From Bacteroidales bacterium (GTDB taxonomy: Bacteria; Bacteroidota; Bacteroidia; Bacteroidales; JAGOPY01): a stretch of DNA of 64,000 nucleotides. This document shows, one piece after another, positions 8,482-60,100 of this stretch (positions are counted from its first letter, which is position 1; each line of letters opens with the position of its first letter). The notes below the pieces were generated by a model that did not search any database, was not told the DNA's origin, and saw nothing but the letters and a program-made list of their open reading frames with translations. The stretch spans positions 147,892 to 211,891 of the forward strand of contig JAGOPY010000001.1 of NCBI GenBank assembly GCA_017991835.1, read 5' to 3'. A program made the position numbers and the translations under genes.

Positions 8482-8552
8482 GATTGTTCGATTGTTCGAT
8501 TGTTCGATTGTTCGATTGTTCGATTGTTCGATTGTTCGATTGTTCGATTGTT
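8482..8552. repeat. tandem array (GATTGTTC)x~9
   Basis: Starts 4 nt after the acyl-CoA dehydrogenase stop. Perfect octamer periodicity. Confidence 0.9.
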
Positions 8553-8574
8553 AATCTTACTGTCAAATATTATA

Positions 8575-8662
8575 ACAATTGAACAATTGAGCTGTTGAAC
8601 AATTGAGCTGTTGAACAATTGAGCCGTTGAACAATTGAACAGTTGAACAATTGAGCCGTTGA
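8575..8662. repeat. tandem array of 16-mer GAACAATTGAGCYGTT x~5
   Basis: Read directly. Its GAACAAT core is the reverse complement of the core of the preceding array, so the two arrays can form a long imperfect hairpin. Confidence 0.85.
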
Positions 8663-8724: not shown

Positions 8725-9102
8725 ATGGAAAAGAAATATTTAAAATTAAATGATATTGATTCCTATAAGAGGGCTTTTCATCTGAGTAATAAAGTCTGGA
8801 ACATCGTAATTTCCTGGGATCATTTTTCGAAAAATACTGTCGGATCGCAATTTGTCCGGGCTGTGGATTCAATTTCTGCAAACCTGGCTGAAGGTTTTGG
8901 CAGATTTTCCAAAAAGGATAAGATTAAGTTTTATCGCATTGCAACGGGTTCGCTAAAAGAATCTTTGGATTGGAATGAAAAGTCAAAACATCGAAACCTG
9001 ATATCGGAAGAAATCTATCTGGAAATATTTAATGAACTGAATGCATTGCCATTAGAGATCAACCAACTTATAAAATACATAAATATGTCTCTTAAAAAAT
9101 AA
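8725..9102 (+). CDS. four-helix-bundle protein (23S rRNA intervening-sequence protein family)
   Basis: 125 aa. QFVRAVDSISANLAEGFGR...KFYRIATGSLKESLDW matches the family signature as I remember it. Confidence 0.75.
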   Translation: MEKKYLKLNDIDSYKRAFHLSNKVWNIVISWDHFSKNTVGSQFVRAVDSISANLAEGFGRFSKKDKIKFYRIATGSLKESLDWNEKSKHRNLISEEIYLEIFNELNALPLEINQLIKYINMSLKK

Positions 9103-9117
9103 TATTAAATTTGCCCG

Positions 9118-9199
9118 ACAATAGAACAATAGAACAATAGAACAATAGAACAATAGAACAATAGAACAATAGAACAATAGAACAATAGAACAATAGAAC
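9118..9199. repeat. tandem array (AACAATAG)x~10
   Basis: Perfect octamer array ending 2 nt before the etfB ATG. Confidence 0.9.
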
Positions 9200-10973: not shown

Positions 10974-11052
10974 GATATTTTGATATTTTGATATTGTGAT
11001 GTTGTGATATTGTGATGTTGTGATATTGTGATGTTGTGATGTTGTGATATTA
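10974..11052. repeat. tandem octamers (GATATTGT/GATGTTGT)
   Basis: Begins directly at the etfA stop codon. Confidence 0.85.
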
Positions 11053-11181
11053 TGGCATTATCATGTTTTGATTTTTTTTGTTTTGCTTTTGTGATTTATT
11101 GTTTGAAAGAGAGATACCGGGGGGATTCAACGGAGGACTATAACACAGAAGATAAAACACAAAACTTAGGATTTAAAACTT

Positions 11182-11904
11182 ATGCCGACTGTTGTTTCTC
11201 TCCATTCTGATATCCTCGATTTCTGCCGGGCCAATGCCGATGAGGCGCTGGTAAGAAAGTACTCCCGCTATTTCAAAGAAGGAGGGTATGACGCATATGG
11301 CGTGACTTATCCGTTGATGCAGGAGAAGGTGAAATCTGTCCTGGAAACGCCCGGGGTTGATCTGGGATTGATCATGGAACTCAGCCGGCTGCTTGTCCCC
11401 GGGACCAAATACGAAGAGCCTGCCATTGCCCTGATGCTGGTCAAAGCCATGAAGAAGCACTATACCGATGATACTTTCCGGGAGATCGTCCACTGGTTCG
11501 ATATCGGAATACGCAACTGGGCCCATACCGATGCGCTGTGTTCGGAGATCTTGTCGGTTTTCCTTCTGAAGAAGATCGTAGATTATAAAGAAATTGGAAA
11601 ATGGAAACAGGGGGAGAATAAATTTCAGCGGAGGGCGGTGCCGGTTGCATTGATCAAACTGATGAAAGAGACGAAGAGAGTTGAGGAATATGTTCGTTTT
11701 ATCGAGCCGCTGATGATGGATGCAGAGCGGGAGGTGCACCAGGGGGTTGGCTGGTTCCTGAGAGAGGCGTGGAAGATTGATCCTGAACCTGTTGAAGAAT
11801 TTTTACTGAAATACAAAAACACTGCCGCCCGCCTTATCTTTCAGTATGCTACGGAGAAAATGACGCCGGAGGGGAAGGCGAGGTTCAGGAGGGAGAAAAG
11901 GTAA
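11182..11904 (+). CDS. DNA alkylation repair protein (AlkD-like HEAT-repeat)
   Basis: About 240 aa. Pattern WAHTDALC ... FQRRAVPVALI ... VHQGVGWFLRE is typical of the DNA alkylation repair enzyme family. Confidence 0.7.
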   Translation: MPTVVSLHSDILDFCRANADEALVRKYSRYFKEGGYDAYGVTYPLMQEKVKSVLETPGVDLGLIMELSRLLVPGTKYEEPAIALMLVKAMKKHYTDDTFREIVHWFDIGIRNWAHTDALCSEILSVFLLKKIVDYKEIGKWKQGENKFQRRAVPVALIKLMKETKRVEEYVRFIEPLMMDAEREVHQGVGWFLREAWKIDPEPVEEFLLKYKNTAARLIFQYATEKMTPEGKARFRREKR

Positions 11905-11910
11905 TAGTCA

Positions 11911-14847
11911 TCAAATTTTATCCTCAAGGTCTTTGAAATTATCAAACCAATATTTACGGTAATCCTGAGGTACGGCGGCAATACCACCCTGTGCAGGCAT
12001 TAGAAACAGTTTTGCTGCAATCCGAAAACCATTGTAGGTAAACATCCTGGGATGACCTGAAAGTGGATCTTCATAAATCTGCCTGAATCCATCAATTTTT
12101 AATATTCCATCCGTATGGGCAGTCCCTTTTGGATCGATAAATAGTATCTGGTAATCAGATCCTTTTTTTAACCAGAATATAAAATCGGGTTTGAATCTTG
12201 AAATCCTGTTTTCCCTAAGGCTATAATAAGGAATATATACCTCATCAAGACTTTGATCCAGCTTTGAAAACATCCACCAATCAAATCTTTTAAATAAAAT
12301 GCCGCTATTTTTCAGGTAATCGCTTAATAATTCAAGGAATTTTACTTCACTGGGAACTGTTATAATGTGATTTAAGTAATCCAGCTTTTCCCTCTCCGAA
12401 ATAATCAACGGAATATAATAGTGATTCGGAATATACTTAATGTGCAGTTCCTCAAATGTAGCCTCCTCCAGAAAATCTAATTCAAGCTGCCTGATTTTTT
12501 GCTTATAGATGTCCCGATCCTGTGTTTCATCAAATTCTTTGTCTATGTCTTTTTCTTGTTCGGCTTTGTGTTCATAATTCTTGACCTGTTTGATCTTCTC
12601 CAGGATTGAATCATATCTGACGCCATCATCGAACCTGATCTTTTTAAAATGAACGATCTCCTCCTCCAGCTCTTTAAACCGCTCCAGTTCCTTATTTCGA
12701 ATGCCCAGGTAATCGAAAATTCGTTTTAGAATCAGAACAGGATCAGAAATTGACCGTGACTCGCTAAAATCAAAGTATTGATCCTGATCGTCAAAACATT
12801 TCGCAACTTTCTCCAGGATCTTCAGATTGGTTTCAAACTTAACCAGAGTTACCTTATTTCCAAGATATTCATAAAGCGTCCTTCCGAGGGCAAAGTCACT
12901 TTTACTGATCCGAAACTTCTGAACAGTATTCTCCTCAGCGTAGTTTTTTTCCGAATCTTTATAAACAGGGATCAATAATTGCTTTTCTTCCCTGGCTTTA
13001 TTGACCTGAAATTCCTGACCGATGTCACGGCCTGTTCTTTGTTCTCTAAGCGTCTGAATTATTTGCTTCAGGTTTGCAGCATTGGTTCCAAACACGTACA
13101 GGCTCTCAACCGGCAATATGCTAGTTTTCAAATCCTGGAAAAGCCTTGCCGGTACCTCGTTTCCGGAAACAAGATTTTGGAGTCTTTTTCGCTTGTTCTT
13201 CAAAGGCTCGATCCTTACTCCCCGGCCCACTGATTGCAAAACGAACTTTTTTGCATCTTTGCCCATACCAATATTGACAAAAAGAACGATATTCGGCCTG
13301 TTTGAGTCCCATCCTTCATAGAACGATCTGGAACCCATCAACAAATTGATTTCCGAGTCATCCTGGTTAAGCTTTTTAAAAATACTTTCATTTTCAAAGC
13401 TTTCGTTGATTTCGTATCCTTCAAGCTTGTCTTTCAGCCAGCCCGAAATATCCCCGATTTTAATGAGTCCGAAGGGTTTATCCGATGACTGAAGCTTGAA
13501 AATGATCTCATTTCTGTTACCGGGAATTTTTAAAACCTCAATCCTACCCGGAAATGACGAATTGTAAATATTCTCGGTAATATCCTGGTATTGAATCTCC
13601 CTTAAGAGCTCCTTGTTAATATTAAGATTCAGCTGTTCGAATTCATAAGAGGGATTATCTTCAATTTCCTTGATTAACTCCTCTCTGGCTGTGTTAAAAA
13701 AATCTTCAGGAATTTCATTAGCAGCGATTTTCTCAATTTCCGAAAAGAACAATTGCAAATCCGATTCTTCCGTATCGACTGAATTGACTAATGTCAACAA
13801 CAATGGCCTGTGATACAGCGATTGATGATACTGCCTGATCTTCCTGAAATATTTATTGATGTAGGTTAGCAGGATTAAGGTTTTGAGGACAATCTTCTGT
13901 TTTTCAATGAGCGAATAATCGTCCTTATCGCGGAATGCTGTAACCTTGGAACCGGAAATATAAATATGTTTCCCATAGCCCTCTTCGATAAATCTCGAAA
14001 GATTGAAATTAAAAACACATGTTGCATAATCTCGTGGATCCGTGAATGTTGCCGAAAAGTTGAATAAAAATCCGTTCCGTGTTAAGATGGTATAAAGTAT
14101 CTGCCTTTTACTGTCCTCTTTATCTCCTTTGTGGGCTTCATCCAGGATGATATACCACTTGCCTTCGTTTTGGTAATTCTTATAACTGATGATCTTCTCC
14201 TTCTGCTCATCCGAGATCAGGTCGGAGCGGTAATAAAATACAGTGATTTCATTTTTACCAAAAGATAAAACATTTTCATGCTTAACCTGGTCGTACTCCT
14301 TAAGGCTTTTCAGGTTGATTTTGCTATCGGAATTGAATGCATTGAACTGCTCGACATGGTTTTTAAACTGGTCGATCAGGTCATCCCGGTGGGCAAGAAA
14401 TAAAATATCCCTGGCCGGTATTTCATTGTTCTGCAATAATTTACGAAGTAAATCTATGAGCTTGACAATGACCAGCGTCTTTCCTGAACCAGTGGCCATC
14501 CAGTAGCTCATCCGGTTAATGAAGTATGCAAATGAGATTTTCCTGTTTTGTACCGGATAATCTTTCTCATATTCCATCAGAAATTTTGCTGTTTTTCTTT
14601 CCTCTTTGCCTTCCAGGTTAAAATCAAGATTCTCTTCAATATCAAAGTAGCCGTAGAATTTATCTTTTTCCCCGTTTTCATCTTTATAAAAACGATGAAG
14701 CGCTTTCAGCGTATTTTTCAAAGCGTCTTGCTGAAAGTTGAAAAGGGTCTTATCTTCCGAGAACCGGCCAAAATCAAAGTCCTGCCATACCTCAGGAAGG
14801 TTATCAAACGAAATATTATCGGCTATGGATTGGAGGTAAAGTTTCAT
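11911..14847 (-). CDS. res: type III restriction enzyme Res-like subunit (SF2 helicase + PD-(D/E)xK nuclease)
   Basis: Helicase motif I MATGSGKT, motif II ILDEAHKG, motif III SATF, motif VI QSVGRGVRI. C-terminal candidate nuclease motif FKPDF...FIDPKG. 978 aa, similar in size to EcoP15I Res. Overlaps the upstream gene by 4 nt (ATGA). Confidence 0.8.
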   Translation of the reverse strand: MKLYLQSIADNISFDNLPEVWQDFDFGRFSEDKTLFNFQQDALKNTLKALHRFYKDENGEKDKFYGYFDIEENLDFNLEGKEERKTAKFLMEYEKDYPVQNRKISFAYFINRMSYWMATGSGKTLVIVKLIDLLRKLLQNNEIPARDILFLAHRDDLIDQFKNHVEQFNAFNSDSKINLKSLKEYDQVKHENVLSFGKNEITVFYYRSDLISDEQKEKIISYKNYQNEGKWYIILDEAHKGDKEDSKRQILYTILTRNGFLFNFSATFTDPRDYATCVFNFNLSRFIEEGYGKHIYISGSKVTAFRDKDDYSLIEKQKIVLKTLILLTYINKYFRKIRQYHQSLYHRPLLLTLVNSVDTEESDLQLFFSEIEKIAANEIPEDFFNTAREELIKEIEDNPSYEFEQLNLNINKELLREIQYQDITENIYNSSFPGRIEVLKIPGNRNEIIFKLQSSDKPFGLIKIGDISGWLKDKLEGYEINESFENESIFKKLNQDDSEINLLMGSRSFYEGWDSNRPNIVLFVNIGMGKDAKKFVLQSVGRGVRIEPLKNKRKRLQNLVSGNEVPARLFQDLKTSILPVESLYVFGTNAANLKQIIQTLREQRTGRDIGQEFQVNKAREEKQLLIPVYKDSEKNYAEENTVQKFRISKSDFALGRTLYEYLGNKVTLVKFETNLKILEKVAKCFDDQDQYFDFSESRSISDPVLILKRIFDYLGIRNKELERFKELEEEIVHFKKIRFDDGVRYDSILEKIKQVKNYEHKAEQEKDIDKEFDETQDRDIYKQKIRQLELDFLEEATFEELHIKYIPNHYYIPLIISEREKLDYLNHIITVPSEVKFLELLSDYLKNSGILFKRFDWWMFSKLDQSLDEVYIPYYSLRENRISRFKPDFIFWLKKGSDYQILFIDPKGTAHTDGILKIDGFRQIYEDPLSGHPRMFTYNGFRIAAKLFLMPAQGGIAAVPQDYRKYWFDNFKDLEDKI

Positions 14848-15677
14848 GATTTATCCCGCAATTTTTTTTTACTCTCAGGTGATTTCAGGTAGTTTTCCCT
14901 GGAAGATATTTTCCTGCCAAGGCGTTTTTCAAGCTTCCGTTTTGCATCGCCGGCAATATTGCCCCCATCCCGCGCATCTTTCTTTAACTTTGGCATCCCC
15001 TGGGAGTCTTCATTTCTGGTAATTTCAGTGGTTGCGCGTTCGCCCAACATGGTAAATATCAGTTCAAAATCATTCATGTGATCCCTCAGGTTCTCCCGCT
15101 TCAGGCCTTTGAAGTTTTTATATTCCGAAGGAGTCATTCCGAAGGTAGCTTTTGAGATTTCTGCAGTTAAAATCTCATAATCCTTTTTTTCTTCAGCGCC
15201 GCGTTTCTGCCATTCATCCGTGAGTTCTTCCCGGATGGCAATTCCCCTTATACGCTTTTCAATCCAGTCGTCGCTGTAGCCTTTCAGTTTGTATAGTATC
15301 CGCGTTCTTTTGGTAGCCAGCTCGGGATTTTCGATCTCTTTGACCCGTTCGAAACCGGTTCTGGCTAACCAGCGTTTGAATGGCTCTGCTTTCGGCGATG
15401 GAATGGATTGGATGATCCTGAATATGCCTTCGGTGTCTGCACAGTCCGTTTCACGGAGCTTTCCGTCGGGAGCAGGCAATTTCAACCCGTGACAGTTTGT
15501 CACGACTTCACTTCCTTCTTCTTTCAGTCGCTGTTTCAGTTTTCGCCAGTATGCGCCGGGATCGACACTTTCTGTCAAGACTCCGCAAACATCCACTACT
15601 GAGAACCACCATTCATCCTCATGCAGAATCTTACGAACCTGCTTTCCCTTAAATAATGCAATCTTCGTCGGTTCCAT
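14844..15677 (-). CDS. Bro-N domain / DinD-like protein embedded between mod and res
   Basis: N-terminus FKGKQVRKILHEDEWWFSVVDVCGVLT...KAEPFKRWLA fits the Bro-N pattern. C-terminal KGLKRENLRDHMNDFELIF... resembles the E. coli DinD C-terminal region as I recall it. Starts 1 nt after the mod stop, and its stop overlaps the res start. Confidence 0.65.
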   Translation of the reverse strand: MEPTKIALFKGKQVRKILHEDEWWFSVVDVCGVLTESVDPGAYWRKLKQRLKEEGSEVVTNCHGLKLPAPDGKLRETDCADTEGIFRIIQSIPSPKAEPFKRWLARTGFERVKEIENPELATKRTRILYKLKGYSDDWIEKRIRGIAIREELTDEWQKRGAEEKKDYEILTAEISKATFGMTPSEYKNFKGLKRENLRDHMNDFELIFTMLGERATTEITRNEDSQGMPKLKKDARDGGNIAGDAKRKLEKRLGRKISSRENYLKSPESKKKLRDKS

Positions 15678-15678
15678 C

Positions 15679-18081
15679 TTATTCCCACCAGATTAAAGGT
15701 TTGACCAGCCGGTAATCCAGCTCTTTCGTATTGATCCTGCTTCCATCGGCAAATTCCACTTCGTTTTCCCGGATGGCTTTTATCCATTTGCCGGTAAGAT
15801 TCGATAATGTCTCCGCTACATCAATGCCCGGGTAAAGCTTTTCGAGGTCAATACTTACTTTATTTTGCTCATAATCAATCTCTAATGCCTTCAGCATCTT
15901 TTCATCTTTCAGGAAAACATACTGGCTGTATGCCTTTTCATCATTTTGATTAAACAAATCCGAGTCGTTGTAAATACACTTGTTTAAGGCCTCTTCGTAT
16001 TGCTCGAGCTCGTAGTATTTGAAGAAACCGCCGCCTGCAAATCCATTTTCTTTTGCAACAACAGTATTTCTACCATTATATAAATCCCCCTTTAATCTCG
16101 GTATTATCTCAACATAAAAATGTTCTGCTAGCTCAATTCCAATGAACTTTCTCTTTTCAATTTTCAACGATGTACAGACTGTTGTTCCACTACCAGCATA
16201 AAAATCCAAAATAATCCCTCCAGCATTCGAAGATGACTTAATTATTCTTTCTAATAATTTTTCTGGCTTTTGTGTATCAAAATTAACTCGCTCATTAGAT
16301 GTAGGTTGTTGTTGAAATGATTTAATGTCATTCCAAACTTCAACAAAAGGTGCATTTTCATCAACTGTTTGAGTTAACTCTCTCCATACTTCTGGAAATG
16401 GTCTTTGAATATCAATCAGATCACTAAGCATATTCCACACATCACCATATGGTTTCTGTTTTTCAAGTATGTCTTTTTTATAGATTCTTCTACCATGAGC
16501 CACTTGGAATAATTCACCTCTTTCATCTTTTTGTTTGAAGCTTTCAAGATACTTAAGTGTATGAGGTTGAATTACTTTATTAAAAATGCTTCTCTCAGCT
16601 TTTGAATAAAAAAGTATATTTTGGTGGCCTAGAATCCAATTATAAATAGCTCCTTTAACTTTATATCCTGAAAGGACCTGAATATCCCAAATTAATTCCC
16701 TTTTAAAACATTCTTTACCAAAAACATGGTTAGTTATTAGACGTCCCAGATAATTAGCATTCTCATCAAGATGAATGTAAAGGTTTCCATTCGATTTTAA
16801 CAAGCTATTTGAAAGACTAAGCCTGTCATTTAAAATAGACAACCATGTGCTATCTTGATAATTATCAATATAATCAAAATCATCTCCTGTATTAAATGGA
16901 GGATCTATATAAACTAAATCAATCTTGCTTTTGAATTTCAGTCGAATGGTAATCAGCGCCTGGTAGTTTTCGCTTTTGATAAGCCAGCCGTCGAGTTGCC
17001 GGTCGAGGTTGTCGAATAATGCCAGGATCTCAAGCTCAAGGCTTTTAAAATATTTCGTATCGAAAGGCAGGTGTTCAAATTTCTTGTCCCCCTGTATATC
17101 AGCGGTTTTGAATTGTTCATCCACAATACCTAATTCCTGCCATTCCTTAATTTGTTCCTTTATTCCCGGATGTTCCAGCAGTTTTTTAACCAGGCCGGCA
17201 TCGGTTATTTTATCAAGGGTAATAACGTAATTGCTGTTTTTAACGAATTTGGGCTTGTTCCATATCTTCACCAGTTCATCTTCAAACTGGGCAATGAAAT
17301 CAATGATCCTGAACGCGATGCTTTTCAGGACCTGAAGCTGGTTAACCCGTTCGCCCGACCATTCTTTCGCGCCATCCCAGAAATACTGGAAGCTCCAGAG
17401 CTTGAACTGCTCCTGCAGGAATGCCCGGGCATTCTTATTGATAAAGAAATCCACCTCGCTTTGCTTCTCAAATACCCTGAAAGCCCGTTCAAGCTGTTCT
17501 TCGGTAATCGCAATATTTTTCTTTTTCAGGTCTTTTAAAATATCTGCAGTTTTCGTAACTGTCCCTTTTTCAGAGTATTTCGTGATAAATAATATTGTTC
17601 CGTCTTCCCTTACATTCTTTAATTCAAAGATGACGGTCCTCTTTTCATTCGCTTTCTTGTTTTCAATTGTTCCGGCATCGAAATAAAACTTCAGTTCCTC
17701 GAATTCGACCGGCATACTCTTAAAAATCCGGTCCGTCTTTACATAATAGAGCATCTGGGTTTTCCAGAACAGGATCACGTCTTTCTCATCGGTGTAAACT
17801 TTTTCGTAGATATTATTGTGGAAAGGCGTGGAATTGAAATAGATAGAGCCACTTTGGGTAAAATAGCGGCTGAAAAAAGAAAATAATTTATCGAAAAGCT
17901 CATCACGAAAATGAGGGTATTGTTCTAAAGCATGGTCAATATCAGCCTGGAGCACCTTTTCAATCTGTGCATAATAACCGGATTTAATGCGCATCAGGTT
18001 AATAAATCCACCCTTACCCTCAATTTTAGCTCCTATAAAAACGTCCTGAAGCGCTTTGTAAAACTTATTTTCTTTACTCAT
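15679..18081 (-). CDS. mod: type III-like DNA methyltransferase Mod (beta-class N6A/N4C) with long N-terminal extension
   Basis: Motif IV LVYIDPPFNTGDDF precedes motif I ILDFYAGSGTT (order IV then I = beta class), with an intervening region of about 245 aa. About 390 aa lie upstream of motif IV. Confidence 0.8.
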   Translation of the reverse strand: MSKENKFYKALQDVFIGAKIEGKGGFINLMRIKSGYYAQIEKVLQADIDHALEQYPHFRDELFDKLFSFFSRYFTQSGSIYFNSTPFHNNIYEKVYTDEKDVILFWKTQMLYYVKTDRIFKSMPVEFEELKFYFDAGTIENKKANEKRTVIFELKNVREDGTILFITKYSEKGTVTKTADILKDLKKKNIAITEEQLERAFRVFEKQSEVDFFINKNARAFLQEQFKLWSFQYFWDGAKEWSGERVNQLQVLKSIAFRIIDFIAQFEDELVKIWNKPKFVKNSNYVITLDKITDAGLVKKLLEHPGIKEQIKEWQELGIVDEQFKTADIQGDKKFEHLPFDTKYFKSLELEILALFDNLDRQLDGWLIKSENYQALITIRLKFKSKIDLVYIDPPFNTGDDFDYIDNYQDSTWLSILNDRLSLSNSLLKSNGNLYIHLDENANYLGRLITNHVFGKECFKRELIWDIQVLSGYKVKGAIYNWILGHQNILFYSKAERSIFNKVIQPHTLKYLESFKQKDERGELFQVAHGRRIYKKDILEKQKPYGDVWNMLSDLIDIQRPFPEVWRELTQTVDENAPFVEVWNDIKSFQQQPTSNERVNFDTQKPEKLLERIIKSSSNAGGIILDFYAGSGTTVCTSLKIEKRKFIGIELAEHFYVEIIPRLKGDLYNGRNTVVAKENGFAGGGFFKYYELEQYEEALNKCIYNDSDLFNQNDEKAYSQYVFLKDEKMLKALEIDYEQNKVSIDLEKLYPGIDVAETLSNLTGKWIKAIRENEVEFADGSRINTKELDYRLVKPLIWWE

Positions 18082-18260
18082 AAATAATTGAATATAAATG
18101 CTATGAAAAGAATATGTTATAGACTAAATTCCCTTCAAATATAATCCAAATCTGTGATTACTCCGGGAAATCTGTGGTGAAAATCCTTTTCCATTACAAA
18201 TAACAAATTAGCCTTCTAATCCATCATTTTACATAATTTTACACTCTTGATTGAAATCTT

Positions 18261-18791
<531 letters not shown>

Positions 18792-18804
18792 ATAACATTC
18801 TTTT

Positions 18805-18856
18805 AACCACATAGGCAGATAGAACACATAGGATACACAATAGATTCTATGTGGTT
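18805..18856. repeat. CACATAG-word hairpin
   Basis: AACCACATAG (18805-18814) pairs with CTATGTGGTT (18847-18856). The loop contains further ACACATAGG/ACACAATAG words. Confidence 0.7.
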
Positions 18857-18940
18857 ACTGTTTTGCCCTTTCCCGAAAAATCGGGACAAGTTGTGTTTAT
18901 TTTATTAATATTTATTATGATAAAATATAAAATCTGAAAG

Positions 18941-57136: not shown

Positions 57137-60100
57137 ATGAGTATTTATAAAAGCGCTGTCAACAAACCCATTACCACCGTCATGATATTCACGGCGGTCG
57201 TAGTGCTCGGGTTATACTCGCTCATTAATATACCGATCGATCTGTATCCCGAGATCGAACCGCCCTATATCAGCATCATGACCACCTACGCAGGGGCCAA
57301 TGCCGCGGATATCGAAACCAACATCACCAAGCCGATCGAAGACGCGCTCAACTCCGTCGATAAGCTGAAAGAGGTGACTTCGGTTTCTTATGATAACCTC
57401 TCACTGGTCAGTATGGAATTTGAATGGGGTTCCAACCTCGATGAAGTACTTAACGATGTAAGATCGGTGATCGATGGCGTTTACAATTATCTGCCCGACG
57501 GGTGCGACAGGCCGTCCATCTTCAAGTTCAGTACCAGTATGATGCCGATCTTGTTCTATGCCATCACGGCTGAAGAAAGCTATCCCGGCCTCGAAAAGAT
57601 CATCGAGGAAAAACTGGTCAATCCGCTTAACAGGATCGAAGGGATCGGCTCCATCACCACGATGGGTTCGCCAAAACGTATCATTTACATCGATGTCGAT
57701 CCCCGGAAACTGGATGCTTATGCCCTGAGCCTCGAACAGATCGGTAACACCATCGCAGCCGAGAACCTGAATATGCCTTCAGGGAATGTCAAGATGGGAA
57801 AATTCGATTACCAGCTCAGGGTGGAAGGTGAGTTTGAAGAAAGCGATCATATCAGGGAAATCATCGTCGGTAATATCGGCGGGAAAGCGGTTTACCTGAA
57901 AGATATCGCTACTGTCAGGGATACACTCAAGTATGGTTTTATTGATGAGAAGATCAATGGTAAACAGGGAATGCGCCTCCTGGTCATGAAACAATCGGGA
58001 GCCAATACAGTAAGTATCGCCCGGGATGTTCATGCGAAAATGGATGAGTTGGTAAAAACTTTGCCGCCCGATATCAGTGTAAACCCGATATTCGACAGCT
58101 CCGACTTTATCAAAGGATCCATCGACAACCTGTCGGAAACCCTGATGTGGGCTTTTCTTTTCGTTATCCTGATCGTCTTGTTCTTCCTGGGCCGCTGGAG
58201 GGCAACATTGATCATTATCCTGACCATCCCGATCTCGCTGGTGGTCTCCTTTATCTATCTCTACTTTACCGGCAGTTCGCTGAACGTGATCTCACTCTCC
58301 TCGCTATCGATCGCAATCGGAATGGTGGTCGATGATGCGATCGTGGTCCTCGAAAACATCACCAAGCATATCGAAAGGGGATCCAGCCCGCGGGAAGCAG
58401 CCATTTATGCCACCAACGAAGTGTGGCTGGCCGTCATTATCACCACCCTTGTCATCGTTGCCGTATTCCTTCCCCTGACCATGGTCGGCGGTATGACCGG
58501 CGTGATGTTCAACGAACTGGGATGGATCGTCACCATAACCATTGTGACCTCAACCCTCGTTGCCATCACGCTGACTCCCATGCTCTCCTCGAAATTGCTG
58601 AAAACATGGATACCGAAAGAAAAGTCAATGAATTCAGCTTATGATAAAACCATCCGAAAGGGTCTCGACAAACTGGATAATTTTTATGAGAGAACCATCC
58701 GTTGGGCCCTGCACCATAAAAGCCTGGTCATTATCGTAAGCCTGGCCATATTTATCGGGAGCCTCGTCCTGGGTGCGTTTTTTGTAAAAACCGATTTTAT
58801 GCCGGAAAGCGACGAGAGCAGAATGACCGTCTCTATCGAACTGCAAACAGGCTTGAGAATGGAAGAATCGAAGATCACGGCAGAAAAGGTCGAGAAGATC
58901 ATCCGGGAGCGTTATCCCGAAATTACGATCATTTCGAATTCGACCGGCGCCGACGACGAAGGTAATTTCTTCTCCCTCTTCAGGCCTACGGGGTCGAACC
59001 GGATCAACCTGATGATGCGATTGGCACCGGTGACCGAGCGCAGCCGTTCCGTGTTTGAGATTGCTGACGACTTCCGCAACCAGCTCGATCAGATTGCCGA
59101 GGTGGTCAATTACGATATTGCCACTTCGAACAACATGATGGGCGGCGGATCCAATACCGTTGATGTGGAAATCTTCGGGTACGATTTCAATGAAACGAAC
59201 CGGATTGCCGATGAGATAAAGACACGGATCAGCCGGATACCCGGCGCCAAAGACGTTTCGTTGAGCCGGGAGAAGGACCGTCCGGAACTGCAGATCGTGC
59301 TCGACAGGGAAAAACTGGCCATGAACGGGTTGAACAGCGCGTTGGTGTCGACTTACATCCGGAACCGGGTGGATGGGATGACCGCTTCCAAATTCAGGGA
59401 GGAAGGCGATGAATACAATATTGAGCTGCGGTACCAGGAAGATTACAGGAATTCGATCACCGACCTGGAGGAGATCACTATCATGAATCCTGCAGGGCAA
59501 AGGATAAAACTTAAAGAACTGGGAGAAGTGAAGGAGTACTGGTCGCCGCCGAATATCGAGCATAAACGACGGGAGAGGATTGCCAAAGTATCCGTCAAAC
59601 CGGTCGGGGTGTCGTTGGGAGAGCTTGCTGAAAGCATCAGGAAAGAAGTTGCTTCGGTCGAAGTTCCTCCGGAGATCATGATCAATGTGGGAGGCGCCTA
59701 TGAAGACCAGATGGAAGGCTTCCAGGATATCGGTTTGCTGATGATCATGAGTCTTGTGCTGGTATTTATTGTCATGGCGTCACAATTTGAATCGTTTGCC
59801 ATGCCATTTGTTATCATGTTTTCGATACCGTTTGCCTTCACGGGCGTAGTGCTGAGCCTGTTCCTGACCAACACCACCCTCAGCCTGATCGCCGCTCTCG
59901 GGGCTGTCTTGCTGATCGGGATTGTGGTGAAGAACGGCATTGTGCTGGTGGATTTCATCAATCTGATGCGCGATAGGGGATTTGAGTTGTACGAAGCGAT
60001 TGCCCGGGCCGGGCATTCCCGGTTGCGCCCGGTATTGATGACTGCCGGCACCACTATCCTTGGGATGCTTCCCTTGGCGCTGAGCAAGGGTGAAGGATCG

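What the first reader, a model, noticed from the sequence alone, without database searches (positions are those of the whole stretch)
11911..18081. AT-rich type III-like R-M island with a Bro-N/DinD-like gene translationally coupled between mod and res
Three minus-strand genes are packed with a 1-nt gap (mod stop 15679 / next ATG at 15677) and a 4-nt ATGA overlap (14844-14847). They are:
- A beta-class methyltransferase (DPPF ... FYAGSGTT).
- A 277-aa protein with a Bro-N N-terminus and a DinD-like C-terminus.
- A 978-aa SF2 helicase with a C-terminal PD...IDPK nuclease-like motif.

Canonical type III systems are two-gene mod-res units. A third, tightly coupled gene with a DNA-binding / antirepressor-type domain recalls accessory defence genes embedded in R-M operons, such as PrrC in type I loci.

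The island is visibly more AT-rich than its flanks (alkD-like gene on the left, TBDR on the right), consistent with horizontal acquisition. I see no integrase or flanking direct repeats.
Basis: partly seen in the sequence, partly recalled or inferred. Interest (0 to 1): 0.6.

Follow-up and report, generated by a model that had tools for sequence, protein, structure and literature searches.

The report
Restriction operon carrying a portable DinD-like gene
This is an ordinary type III-like restriction-modification operon carrying an optional passenger gene from the DinD family, which is already listed as an untested phage-defence candidate and which here proves related to the Deinococcus DNA-break sensor DdrC.

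Summary
Three minus-strand genes lie at the stated coordinates (mod 15679-18081, X 14844-15677, res 11911-14847), joined by TAA-g-ATG and ATGA junctions. They sit in an AT-rich block between an alkD-like gene and a TonB-dependent receptor.

Mod and Res form a widespread type III-like family whose usual form is two genes 1-2 nt apart. X is not a dedicated third subunit:
- Among 75 species-level loci carrying close X relatives, no neighbour family recurs in more than 5.
- Only 3 of these loci have X between a type III mod and res, and those Mods are of different families.
- Res proteins from the two X-bearing loci of this family fall in different clades.
- Close Res relatives carry a protease (PDC-S45), an unknown gene or nothing at the same junction.

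X matches PADLOC candidate PDC-S13 over its full length, and E. coli DinD belongs to the same candidate family. Its most frequent context is inside CRISPR-Cas loci (12 of 75). X is under very strong purifying selection and is nearly absent from phages.

Three independent tests link its C-terminal domain to Deinococcus DdrC, a DNA-break-binding protein reported to have no homologs outside that genus. Function remains untested.

The parts
15679..18081 (-). mod: 800-aa beta-class N6-adenine DNA methyltransferase of type III kind. Motif IV (DPPF) is at 16894-16905 and motif I (FYAGSGTT) at 16180-16203. The ~380-aa N-terminal extension has unknown function.
   Evidence: Pfam PF01555 E 3e-34. PADLOC MTase_III PDLC03638 full length, E 1.6e-223. 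The best solved relatives are type III Mods 6k0w and 4zcf_A.
14844..15677 (-). X: 277-aa DinD-family protein (PADLOC PDC-S13). The Bro-N domain covers aa 13-107 (15357-15641). The helical DinD/DdrC-type C-domain covers aa ~118-253 (14919-15326). The conserved KGLKRENLRD motif is at 15081-15110.
11911..14847 (-). res: 978-aa SF2 ATPase with a C-terminal nuclease-like domain. Walker A is at 14476-14496 and DEAH at 14131-14142. The putative PD-(D/E)XK domain covers aa ~830-977 (11914-12360) and carries E834, D888 and D905-P-K907.
   Evidence: (precomputed PF27151 YagJ). The fold itself is not confirmed.
15677..15681 (-). mod|X junction: TAA, g, then the start of the X ATG. In relatives without cargo, the res ATG sits at exactly this position after the conserved ...TGGTGG(GA[AG])TAA mod end.
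14844..14847 (-). X|res ATGA overlap. The X stop codon TGA is formed from the res start codon plus the first base of res codon 2.
18082..18260 (-). Upstream non-coding region, presumed to hold the only promoter of the operon. It contains a TAnnTTTG-like element (TATATTTG, 18136-18143) resembling the Bacteroidota -7 motif. This is weak evidence and was not tested.
   Evidence: Read. The motif identity rests on general knowledge of Bacteroides promoters. The sigma-70 scan is at chance level.
11905..18900 (.). Compositionally deviant AT-rich block. It comprises the operon plus the AT-rich orf176 region to its right.

Best explanation
The locus is a horizontally acquired type III-like restriction-modification operon. 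Mod is a beta-class m6A methyltransferase that supplies sequence recognition and host protection. Res is an SF2 ATPase with a C-terminal PD-(D/E)XK-type nuclease. The ancestral form of this Mod/Res family has the two genes 1-2 nt apart.

X is an optional, autonomous passenger of the DinD/DdrC superfamily (PADLOC candidate PDC-S13). It sits precisely in the mod|res junction, so its ATG takes the place that the res ATG occupies in relatives without cargo, and res restarts by an ATGA overlap. X is therefore expressed stoichiometrically with the R-M genes from their promoter, but it is not a subunit of the enzyme.

Inferred mechanism of X: a dimeric, sequence-independent DNA-binding protein that recognises broken or otherwise abnormal DNA, as DdrC does, and/or acts on RecA-DNA filaments, as DinD does. 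On this reading it works on the products of nuclease attack and not on a partner protein. That would explain three observations:
- Nearly the same protein sits in unrelated DNA-cutting systems: type III mod|res, SNF2|type IIG, and the CRISPR-Cas effector/adaptation boundary.
- It also sits next to housekeeping genes.
- It evolves about twice as slowly as Mod and Res.

Shown: anatomy, family memberships, optional and variable linkage, purifying selection, and homology to DinD and DdrC. Inferred: break binding, and whether the benefit is stronger defence or lower self-damage.
For: **R-M identity**
- Domain, motif and solved-structure matches.

**Canonical two-gene form without X**
- L101, L102, L104 and L105.
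- Their junctions read ...TGGTGG(GAA)TAA, 1-2 nt, then ATG.

**Cargo turnover at the junction**
- The Trypsin_2 protein in L103 matches PADLOC PDC-S45.
- L099 carries an unknown 248-aa gene.
- L094 has a DinD-like gene downstream of res instead.

**Independent entry of X**
- Window and L011 Res are 61% identical.
- L011 Res is 83-88% identical to Res of the X-free loci L101, L103 and L099.
- The two X proteins are 82% identical.
- X has GC3 0.49, against 0.39 for mod and 0.44 for res.

**No conserved partner**
-.

**Defence contexts**
- 12 of 75 loci are CRISPR-Cas and at least 5 are R-M.
- PGAP annotation of Arcobacter cloacae pACLO independently shows cas4-BroN-cas1b-cas2.

**Functional constraint**
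- dS is saturated, with dN 0.14 for X against 0.30 for Res and 0.33 for Mod.
- 947 clusters at 50% identity match X at E<=1e-30.

**DinD link**
- DinD matches PDC-S13 model PDLC04919 at E 2e-121 and X's model PDLC04920 at E 2e-16.
- DinD has a Pfam Bro-N domain.
- hhalign gives 78% probability, E 1.8e-5.

**DdrC link**
- In Foldseek against the PDB, DdrC chains gave the only hits at E<=0.001 (best 6e-5) and the six best hits overall; the next hit has E 1.4.
- A sequence profile against the PDB returns DdrC as its top three hits, E 0.001-0.005.
- In the reverse direction, the DdrC CTD hits only the two PDC-S13 models among 5,027.
- By my hand-mapping of the alignment onto X numbering, three of DdrC's four validated DNA-binding residues (PMC11347143) align with basic positions in X. 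Two of these positions are well conserved.
Against: - No experiment exists for X or for any PDC-S13 member. The preprint calls the PDCs untested.
- The X model has only moderate confidence (pLDDT 66), and TM-scores to DdrC are low (0.28-0.46).
- Sequence similarity to DdrC covers only the C-domain.
- One validated DdrC residue (R128) aligns with a glutamate in X.
- In all five R-M-type loci X lies immediately upstream of the nuclease gene. This could still reflect a functional tie to nucleases and not mere convenience of insertion.
- Neighbour annotation was partial, so the defence counts are lower bounds.
- The 80 loci surveyed are the closest relatives only.
- The nuclease fold of Res was not confirmed structurally.
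Confidence: 0.7

Rival explanations
1. X is a dedicated accessory of this type III system, analogous to PrrC in type I loci. It has co-evolved with Mod and Res and acts through them, for example as a sensor or back-up effector when restriction is blocked.
For: - Packing with mod and res is very tight.
- The mod-X-res order recurs in four lineages: the window, L011, L058 and L074.
- X is always directly upstream of the nuclease gene.
Against: - The four Mods belong to three different PADLOC families: 03638, 03633 and 03632.
- Res phylogeny is incongruent with X presence.
- Most family members lack X.
- About 70% of surveyed X loci have no recognised immune neighbour.
- X lacks any enzymatic domain.
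Confidence: 0.1
2. X is a self-sufficient single-gene anti-phage system, which is the literal meaning of PADLOC PDC-S13. It merely lodges in defence operons. It would act by binding incoming or replicating phage DNA ends, or by blocking recombination-dependent phage replication or repair.
For: - X matches PDC-S13 over its full length.
- The family was selected by guilt-by-embedding.
- It is enriched in immune loci.
- The alternative cargo at the same junction is another candidate, PDC-S45.
- DinD removes RecA filaments (PMC4849656, citing Uranga 2011).
Against: - It is untested.
- The characterised relatives, DinD and DdrC, serve host DNA-damage responses and not defence.
- Many loci are housekeeping contexts in CPR genomes.
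- There is no toxic or effector domain.
Confidence: 0.25
3. X is a transcription regulator or antirepressor. This is the usual annotation of Bro-N proteins. It would control the timing of res expression like a C protein, or be a prophage remnant.
For: - Database names include 'phage antirepressor' and 'prophage antirepressor-like'.
- There are weak PHROG matches to Ant families.
- It is a DNA-binding-type fold placed inside an R-M operon.
Against: - Only 4 of 50,697 phage records contain a relative, all of them short uncultured fragments.
- Sequence conservation stops at the ORF ends, so no operator travels with the gene.
- There is no phage gene nearby in the window or in L001-L010.
- The same protein sits in dozens of unrelated operons.
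Confidence: 0.07
4. X is a selfish mobile gene, like a free-standing homing gene, that inserts between genes and gives the host nothing.
For: - Insertion is precise and ORF-only, without flanks.
- Contexts are highly diverse, including sites between housekeeping genes.
- It is spread across bacterial phyla and into an archaeon.
Against: - Synonymous sites are saturated while the protein stays 70-82% identical. This means long-term strong purifying selection and not recent spread.
- There is no nuclease, integrase or transposase domain.
- There are no terminal repeats.
Confidence: 0.05

Closest known systems
Type III restriction-modification systems (EcoP15I, EcoP1I; Mod2Res)
   Same: - Mod is a beta-class N6-adenine methyltransferase with the target-recognition region between motifs IV and I.
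- Res has a full set of SF2 motifs and a C-terminal PD...D-x-K motif.
- Gene order is mod then res in one tightly coupled operon.
- Mod's best solved relatives are type III Mods.
   Different: - Mod carries a ~380-aa N-terminal extension.
- Res has no detectable sequence match to any solved structure, including EcoP15I Res, and only a partial PADLOC REase_III match.
- Its nuclease domain is the PF27151 'YagJ' type.
- A third gene is present.
PADLOC PDC-S13, one of 145 untested 'phage defence candidates' found by guilt-by-embedding (Payne et al., bioRxiv 10.1101/2024.01.29.577857)
   Same: - X matches model PDLC04920 end to end (E 2.3e-120).
- It is embedded in an immune operon on the same strand.
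   Different: - The candidates were derived from BREX, DISARM and type I R-M loci. Here the host system is type III-like.
- In the loci surveyed here, the most frequent host is CRISPR-Cas.
- No activity has been shown for any member.
E. coli DinD (SOS-inducible; removes RecA filaments)
   Same: - Same two-domain architecture: Bro-N plus a helical C-domain.
- Same PADLOC family.
   Different: - Similarity is very distant (BLASTP E 0.07).
- X does not match any NCBIfam model, so it is not an annotated DinD equivalog.
- DinD is a stand-alone, LexA-controlled gene, whereas X has no room for a promoter of its own.
Deinococcus radiodurans DdrC (dimeric sensor and bridger of DNA nicks and double-strand breaks; PMC11347143)
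   Same: - The C-terminal domains are homologous by three tests.
- Both have an N-terminal alpha/beta domain followed by a helical domain.
- Basic residues align with three of the four validated DNA-contacting residues of DdrC.
   Different: - No sequence-level match in the N-terminal domain.
- Identity is 10-15%.
- DdrC is a damage-regulon gene and is not embedded in immune operons.
- Break binding by X is untested.
PrrC embedded in type I R-M
   Same: An extra gene nested inside an R-M operon.
   Different: - PrrC is an ABC-ATPase/anticodon nuclease found almost exclusively embedded and held in check by its R-M partner.
- X has no enzymatic domain and is mostly found outside R-M loci.
Controller (C) proteins of R-M systems
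   Same: A small, putatively DNA-binding protein encoded within an R-M operon.
   Different: - C proteins are helix-turn-helix proteins with C-box operators that travel with them.
- X is Bro-N/DinD-type and has no conserved flanking DNA.

Membership tests
Type III R-M | Mod is a beta-class N6-adenine methyltransferase (motif IV before motif I, with the TRD between them). | tested here: met
   DPPF is at aa 393 and FxGxG at aa 627. Pfam PF01555. PADLOC MTase_III full length. The closest solved structures are type III Mods.
Type III R-M | Res is an SF2 helicase-like ATPase. | tested here: met
   ResIII, DEAD and SWI2_SNF2 matches. GSGKT, DEAH, SAT and QxxGRGxR are invariant in 121 homologs.
Type III R-M | Res carries a C-terminal PD-(D/E)XK endonuclease domain. 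| tested here: inconclusive
   E834, P-D888 and D905-P-K907 are invariant. The model of aa 830-978 has alpha-beta-beta-beta-beta-alpha-beta topology at pLDDT 73-86. However, the fold search was uninformative, a profile against the PDB found nothing, and the Pfam copy used lacks PF27151.
Type III R-M | mod precedes res in a single operon. | tested here: met
   The canonical relatives have a 1-2 nt gap.
Type III R-M | ATP-dependent cleavage that needs two inversely oriented unmethylated asymmetric sites, with hemimethylation of the site. | not testable with these tools
   This needs biochemistry and a methylome.
PADLOC PDC-S13 / DinD family | Full-length match to a PDC-S13 profile. | tested here: met
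   PDLC04920, E 2.3e-120, aa 3-273 of 277.
PADLOC PDC-S13 / DinD family | Bro-N N-terminal domain plus a DinD-type helical C-domain. | tested here: met
PADLOC PDC-S13 / DinD family | Anti-phage activity. | not testable with these tools
   The source preprint describes the 145 PDCs as untested.
E. coli DinD orthologs | Match to a curated DinD equivalog model, and SOS (LexA) control. | tested here: not met
   No NCBIfam model matches X. BLASTP to DinD gives E 0.07. There is a 1-nt gap to mod, so X has no promoter of its own.
DdrC superfamily | Homology of the C-terminal DNA-binding domain. | tested here: met
   Profile against the PDB, E 0.0012. Reverse search, E 7e-6 and 6e-5, with no other model hit. 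Foldseek, E 6e-5.
DdrC superfamily | Homologous N-terminal lesion-recognition domain, and dimeric binding of nicks and double-strand breaks. | tested here: inconclusive
   Foldseek alignments span ~250 columns, including the N-domain, but TM is only 0.28-0.46 on a pLDDT-66 model. There is no sequence signal in the N-domain. Binding cannot be tested here.
Phage antirepressor (Ant/Bro) | Encoded by phages or prophages next to lysis-lysogeny genes. | tested here: not met
   4 of 50,697 phage records. No phage genes are adjacent.
PrrC-like R-M-embedded effector | ABC-ATPase plus nuclease domains, and near-exclusive embedding in its partner R-M. | tested here: not met
   No such domains. Most X loci are not R-M.

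The most novel reading that the evidence does not exclude
DinD, DdrC and the PDC-S13 proteins form one ancient superfamily of DNA-break or abnormal-DNA sensors. The highly conserved X subfamily has been recruited repeatedly as a plug-in module for DNA-cutting immune systems. It sits at type III mod|res junctions, at SNF2|type IIG junctions and at the effector/adaptation boundary of type I and type V CRISPR-Cas loci.

In those settings it would capture the ends produced by restriction or interference. The ends could then be withheld from recombinational rescue, fed to Cas4-Cas1-Cas2 as spacer precursors, or repaired when the break is in the host's own chromosome.

This would give a biochemical role to the long-orphan SOS gene dinD. 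It would also overturn the view that DdrC is specific to Deinococcus.
Probability: 0.3. Interest if true: 0.75.

Novelty: new member of a known kind. Interest (0 to 1): 0.45.

Why it matters
The locus itself is a routine type III-like R-M system with an embedded gene. That phenomenon has already been described, and this very family is already listed as an untested candidate. Following it up gave three testable leads:
1. The mod|res junction of a large type III-like family behaves as a cargo slot that turns over among close relatives.
2. The DinD-type protein is found most often inside CRISPR-Cas loci, next to the adaptation genes.
3. The protein is homologous to DdrC, whose break-sensing biochemistry is known.

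The third lead turns an annotation dead end ('Bro-N domain-containing protein' or 'antirepressor') into specific experiments. It also bears on the unexplained function of E. coli DinD.

Tried and rejected

- The metagenome scan with Res returned only 2 loci. I replaced it with protein search plus contig look-ups.
- A literature search for 'PDC-S13' found nothing.
- No paper in the held library links DinD or Bro-N to CRISPR or R-M embedding, or DdrC to DinD.
- hhalign of the shallow alignment A3 (Neff 1.5) against DinD was uninformative. The diverse alignment A6 worked.
- The full-length Res model was poor (pLDDT 54) and its fold search meaningless.
- A Res C-domain profile against the PDB gave no hit, and the Res C-domain gave no significant Pfam match.
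- I looked for an empty site of the island among contigs with the identical alkD gene. All of them carry the operon.
- Flanking repeats are only low-complexity matches.
- Sigma-70 promoter and terminator scans are at chance level.

**Ideas considered and rejected**
- Prophage antirepressor: X is rare in phages.
- Homing-type selfish gene: dS is saturated, selection is strongly purifying and there is no nuclease.
- Operator-carrying regulator cassette: there are no conserved flanks.
- A single ancestral mod-X-res unit: the Res and Mod phylogenies are incongruent with it.
Full report
**1. Observation**

The three minus-strand ORFs exist exactly as described: mod 15679-18081 (800 aa), X 14844-15677 (277 aa) and res 11911-14847 (978 aa).
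- The junctions read TGGTGGGAATAA-g-ATG and AATC-ATGA-AAC.
- GC is 0.37, 0.46 and 0.38 for mod, X and res, against 0.50 for the alkD-like gene and 0.54 for the TonB-dependent receptor. GC3 is 0.39-0.49 against 0.61-0.68.
- There is no integrase and there are no meaningful flanking repeats. Promoter- and terminator-like sites do not exceed chance.
- Ten contigs of the same species, a Bacteroidales MAG, carry the same arrangement. No contig with the identical alkD gene lacks the operon. Horizontal acquisition therefore rests on composition alone.

**2. Mod and Res**

Mod:
- It matches Pfam N6_N4_Mtase.
- It matches PADLOC MTase_III model PDLC03638 over its whole length (E 1.6e-223).
- Its best solved relatives are the type III Mods 6k0w and EcoP15I 4zcf_A.
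- DPPF (aa 393) precedes FxGxG (aa 627), the beta-class order.

Res:
- It has ResIII, DEAD and SWI2_SNF2 matches, a weak partial REase_III match and a precomputed C-terminal PF27151 'YagJ' hit.
- It has more than 4,900 homologs, about 62% identical across phyla.
- In 121 of these, all SF2 motifs and E834, P-D888 and D905-P-K907 are invariant.
- The full-length model is poor (pLDDT 54). Residues 830-978 are modelled at pLDDT 73-86 with an alpha-beta-beta-beta-beta-alpha-beta layout that places the invariant acidic and lysine residues as in PD-(D/E)XK nucleases.
- Fold and profile searches could not confirm the fold.

I therefore file the pair as type III-like. The nuclease feature is supported at motif level only.

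**3. Is X a conserved third component?**

X has thousands of homologs, about 80% identical in Bacteroidales, Acetothermia, Deltaproteobacteria, Planctomycetota, CPR phyla and an archaeon. I took the 80 closest loci from one genome per species.
- Only 3 have a Mod homolog next to X, and only 1 has a Res homolog.
- The 69 upstream neighbours fall into 103 Pfam families and the 70 downstream neighbours into 75.
- By all-against-all clustering, no neighbour family occurs in more than 5 of 75 loci.

Reciprocally, I examined ten independent loci of this Res family, counting the window:

| Locus | Content of the mod\|res junction |
|---|---|
| L102, L104, L105 | Nothing; mod and res 1-2 nt apart |
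| L101 | Nothing; 133-nt gap |
| L096 | Nothing; Mod is split by an IS21 element |
| L103 | 262-aa Trypsin_2 gene, which matches PADLOC PDC-S45 |
| L099 | Unknown 248-aa gene |
| L094 | Mod is internally deleted; a 52%-identical DinD-like gene lies downstream of res |
| Window, L011 | X |

- Empty junctions read ...TGGTGG(GAA)TAA-T-ATGAAG. In the window, the X ATG occupies the place of the res ATG.
- Res of the window and Res of L011 are 61% identical and lie in different clades. L011 Res is 83-88% identical to Res of L101, L103 and L099, while the two X proteins are 82% identical.
- X therefore entered this junction at least twice, and the junction exchanges its cargo among close relatives.
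- The other type III loci with X (L058, L074) have Mods of different PADLOC families.

**4. Where X lives**

Labelling the recurrent neighbour clusters and the large neighbours gave these counts.
- **CRISPR-Cas: 12 of 75 loci.** In at least eight of them X sits directly among the effector and adaptation genes:
  - cas6e-X-cas1-cas2, with variants (four loci);
  - cas7-X-cas4-cas1, or cas4-X-cas1;
  - cas12a-X-cas4-cas1.

  It also lies after cas3f and before cas3c.
- **R-M-type loci: at least 5.** Three are type III mod|res, one is SNF2|type IIG and one lies after hsdR.
- **Other embedded-type genes.** RhuM is adjacent in 4 loci and ORF6N in 3.
- **The remainder.** These include tRNA synthetases, M16 peptidases, glycosyltransferases and gyrA, mostly in CPR genomes.

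An annotated plasmid of a cultured organism, Arcobacter cloacae pACLO, shows cas4-BroN-cas1b-cas2. From general knowledge, cas operons make up well under 1% of genes, so 16% is a large enrichment. I did not compute a formal null.

Further properties of X:
- It is nearly absent from phages (4 short fragments in 50,697 records) and rare on plasmids (23 of 72,556).
- Sequence conservation begins within about 15 nt of the start codon and ends at the stop codon, so the conserved unit is the bare ORF.
- Upstream neighbours are co-directional in 56 of 69 loci.
- 23 of 49 co-directional downstream genes start within 30 nt of the X stop.

**5. What X is**

X matches PADLOC PDC-S13 model PDLC04920 end to end (E 2.3e-120) and phrog_15286, a family of unknown function. 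PDC systems are 145 untested candidates. They were chosen because they occur embedded in BREX, DISARM or type I R-M loci (bioRxiv 10.1101/2024.01.29.577857).

Links to E. coli DinD:
- DinD matches the sister model PDLC04919 (E 2e-121). It also matches X's model over aa 122-250 (E 2e-16) and a type I specificity-subunit model that evidently contains a fused DinD module.
- DinD scores above threshold for Pfam Bro-N.
- A diverse X-family profile aligns with DinD residues 143-246 (hhalign 78%, E 1.8e-5).
- X therefore shares DinD's whole architecture. It is a distant relative and not an ortholog.

Family size and constraint:
- 947 clusters at 50% identity match at E<=1e-30.
- Third-codon-position identity between X genes is about 0.42 and dS is saturated, while proteins stay 70-82% identical.
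- For the window-L011 pair, dN is 0.14 for X, 0.30 for Res and 0.33 for Mod.
- The conservation therefore reflects long-term strong purifying selection and not recent transfer.

**6. Link to DdrC**

The AlphaFold model of X (pLDDT 66) has an alpha/beta Bro-N domain and a helical C-domain. Four lines of evidence tie X to Deinococcus DdrC:
- In Foldseek against the PDB, DdrC chains gave the only hits at E<=0.001 (best E 6e-5) and the six best hits overall (E up to 0.05). About 250 columns align, TM is 0.28-0.46, and the next-best hit has E 1.4.
- Independently, a sequence profile of diverse X relatives returned DdrC as the top three hits in the PDB (E 0.0012-0.0046). X positions 138-253 align with DdrC 114-223.
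- In reverse, that DdrC segment hits only the two PDC-S13 models among 5,027 PADLOC profiles (E 7e-6 and 6e-5).
- DdrC's validated DNA-binding residues are R128, R142, R164 and K170 (PMC11347143). By my hand-mapping of the alignment onto X numbering, they align with X E150 (next to the conserved R149), K165, K187 (basic in 91-94% of members) and K193 (basic in 66-88%) (conservation). The shared G-[LV]-K...R-D motif is the best-conserved stretch among X, DinD and DdrC.

DdrC is a damage-induced dimer that recognises and bridges nicks and double-strand breaks. The authors state that it has no identifiable homologs outside Deinococcus. DinD is cited as a factor that removes RecA filaments (PMC4849656, citing Uranga et al. 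2011). I found no paper linking these proteins, though the searchable library is incomplete.

**7. Mechanism**

Shown:
- A type III-like R-M operon.
- An optional DinD/DdrC-superfamily gene inserted exactly at the mod|res junction.
- No conserved protein partner for that gene.
- Strong purifying selection on it.
- Its enrichment in DNA-cutting immune loci.

Inferred:
- X is expressed with the operon. It has no promoter space, and it inherits the coupling site formed by the conserved mod 3' end.
- It binds broken or distorted DNA as a dimer, and/or it modulates RecA filaments.
- It therefore acts on the products of nuclease attack.

Whether this strengthens defence, supplies ends to CRISPR adaptation or limits self-inflicted damage cannot be decided here.

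**8. Verdict**

- The locus is a new member of a known kind: an R-M operon with an embedded, already catalogued candidate gene.
- The side results are the more interesting outcome and are directly testable. They are the cargo-slot behaviour of the junction, the CRISPR-Cas association and the DdrC homology.

Noticed in passing
window 8482-8552, 8574-8662, 9118-9199, 10974-11072: Four intergenic tandem arrays of related 8-bp units flank the 23S-rRNA-IVP-like gene (8725-9102) and the ETF genes. They are GATTGTTC x8.9, AACAATTG, ACAATAGA x10.2 and GATATTGT x9.8, and some are 100% perfect. Their function is unknown.
   Followed up: no
window 18261-18791 (+), repeat at 18715-18753: An AT-rich 176-aa ORF lies just right of the operon. 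It has a hydrophobic N-terminus and no family match, and it ends in a TTCCATT x5.6 tandem repeat. It is called as a gene in some strain contigs (L007, L010) and may belong to the acquired block. An 18-nt stretch inside alkD (11590-11607) is 94% complementary to this repeat, which is probably a low-complexity coincidence.
   Followed up: partly
L103:4209-4997; L099:512-1258: In close relatives of this Mod/Res family, the same mod|res junction holds other tightly coupled genes. One is a 262-aa Trypsin_2 protein matching PADLOC PDC-S45. The other is a 248-aa protein with no match in Pfam or PADLOC. The junction behaves as a cargo slot.
   Followed up: partly
L094:4389-8916: The closest Res relative (73% identical) sits behind a Mod reduced by internal deletion to aa 1-100 plus the last ~20 residues, making it an orphan Res. 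An 87-aa ORF overlaps the res start, and a 52%-identical DinD-like gene lies 140 nt downstream of res.
   Followed up: partly
L022, L030, L043, L053, L012, L055, L057, L067, L068, L039; L107 (Arcobacter cloacae pACLO 58385-59281): Close X relatives are embedded in CRISPR-Cas loci of types I-B/C, I-E, I-F and V-A. In most of these loci they lie between the effector genes and cas4/cas1. In L043, X and a RhuM gene both lie between cas6e and cas1. I found no report of this association.
   Followed up: partly
L091:3761-4585 (E. coli K-12 dinD): E. coli DinD matches a PADLOC type I specificity-subunit model (PDLC03083) over model positions 6-267 of 717 (E 3e-114). This implies that HsdS proteins with an N-terminal DinD module exist, which would be a gene-fusion link between this family and R-M.
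   Followed up: no
PDB 7udi, 8u0g, 7qvb against X (window 14919-15326): Deinococcus DdrC is described in the literature as lacking homologs outside the genus. It is reciprocally linked to the DinD/PDC-S13 C-domain by fold search, by profile-to-PDB search and by DdrC-to-profile search.
   Followed up: yes
L073:2244-3092 and the adjacent X gene; L020:9080-10822: One Paceibacteria locus carries two tandem X paralogs. One locus encodes a 580-aa ORF call (possibly over-extended at its 5' end) in which the X module, with Bro-N at aa 315-408, follows ~300 residues that are unannotated.
   Followed up: no
L096:289-4769: In a 65%-identical relative of the system, mod is interrupted by an IS21-family element (rve plus IstB) and another ORF, while res remains intact.
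   Followed up: no
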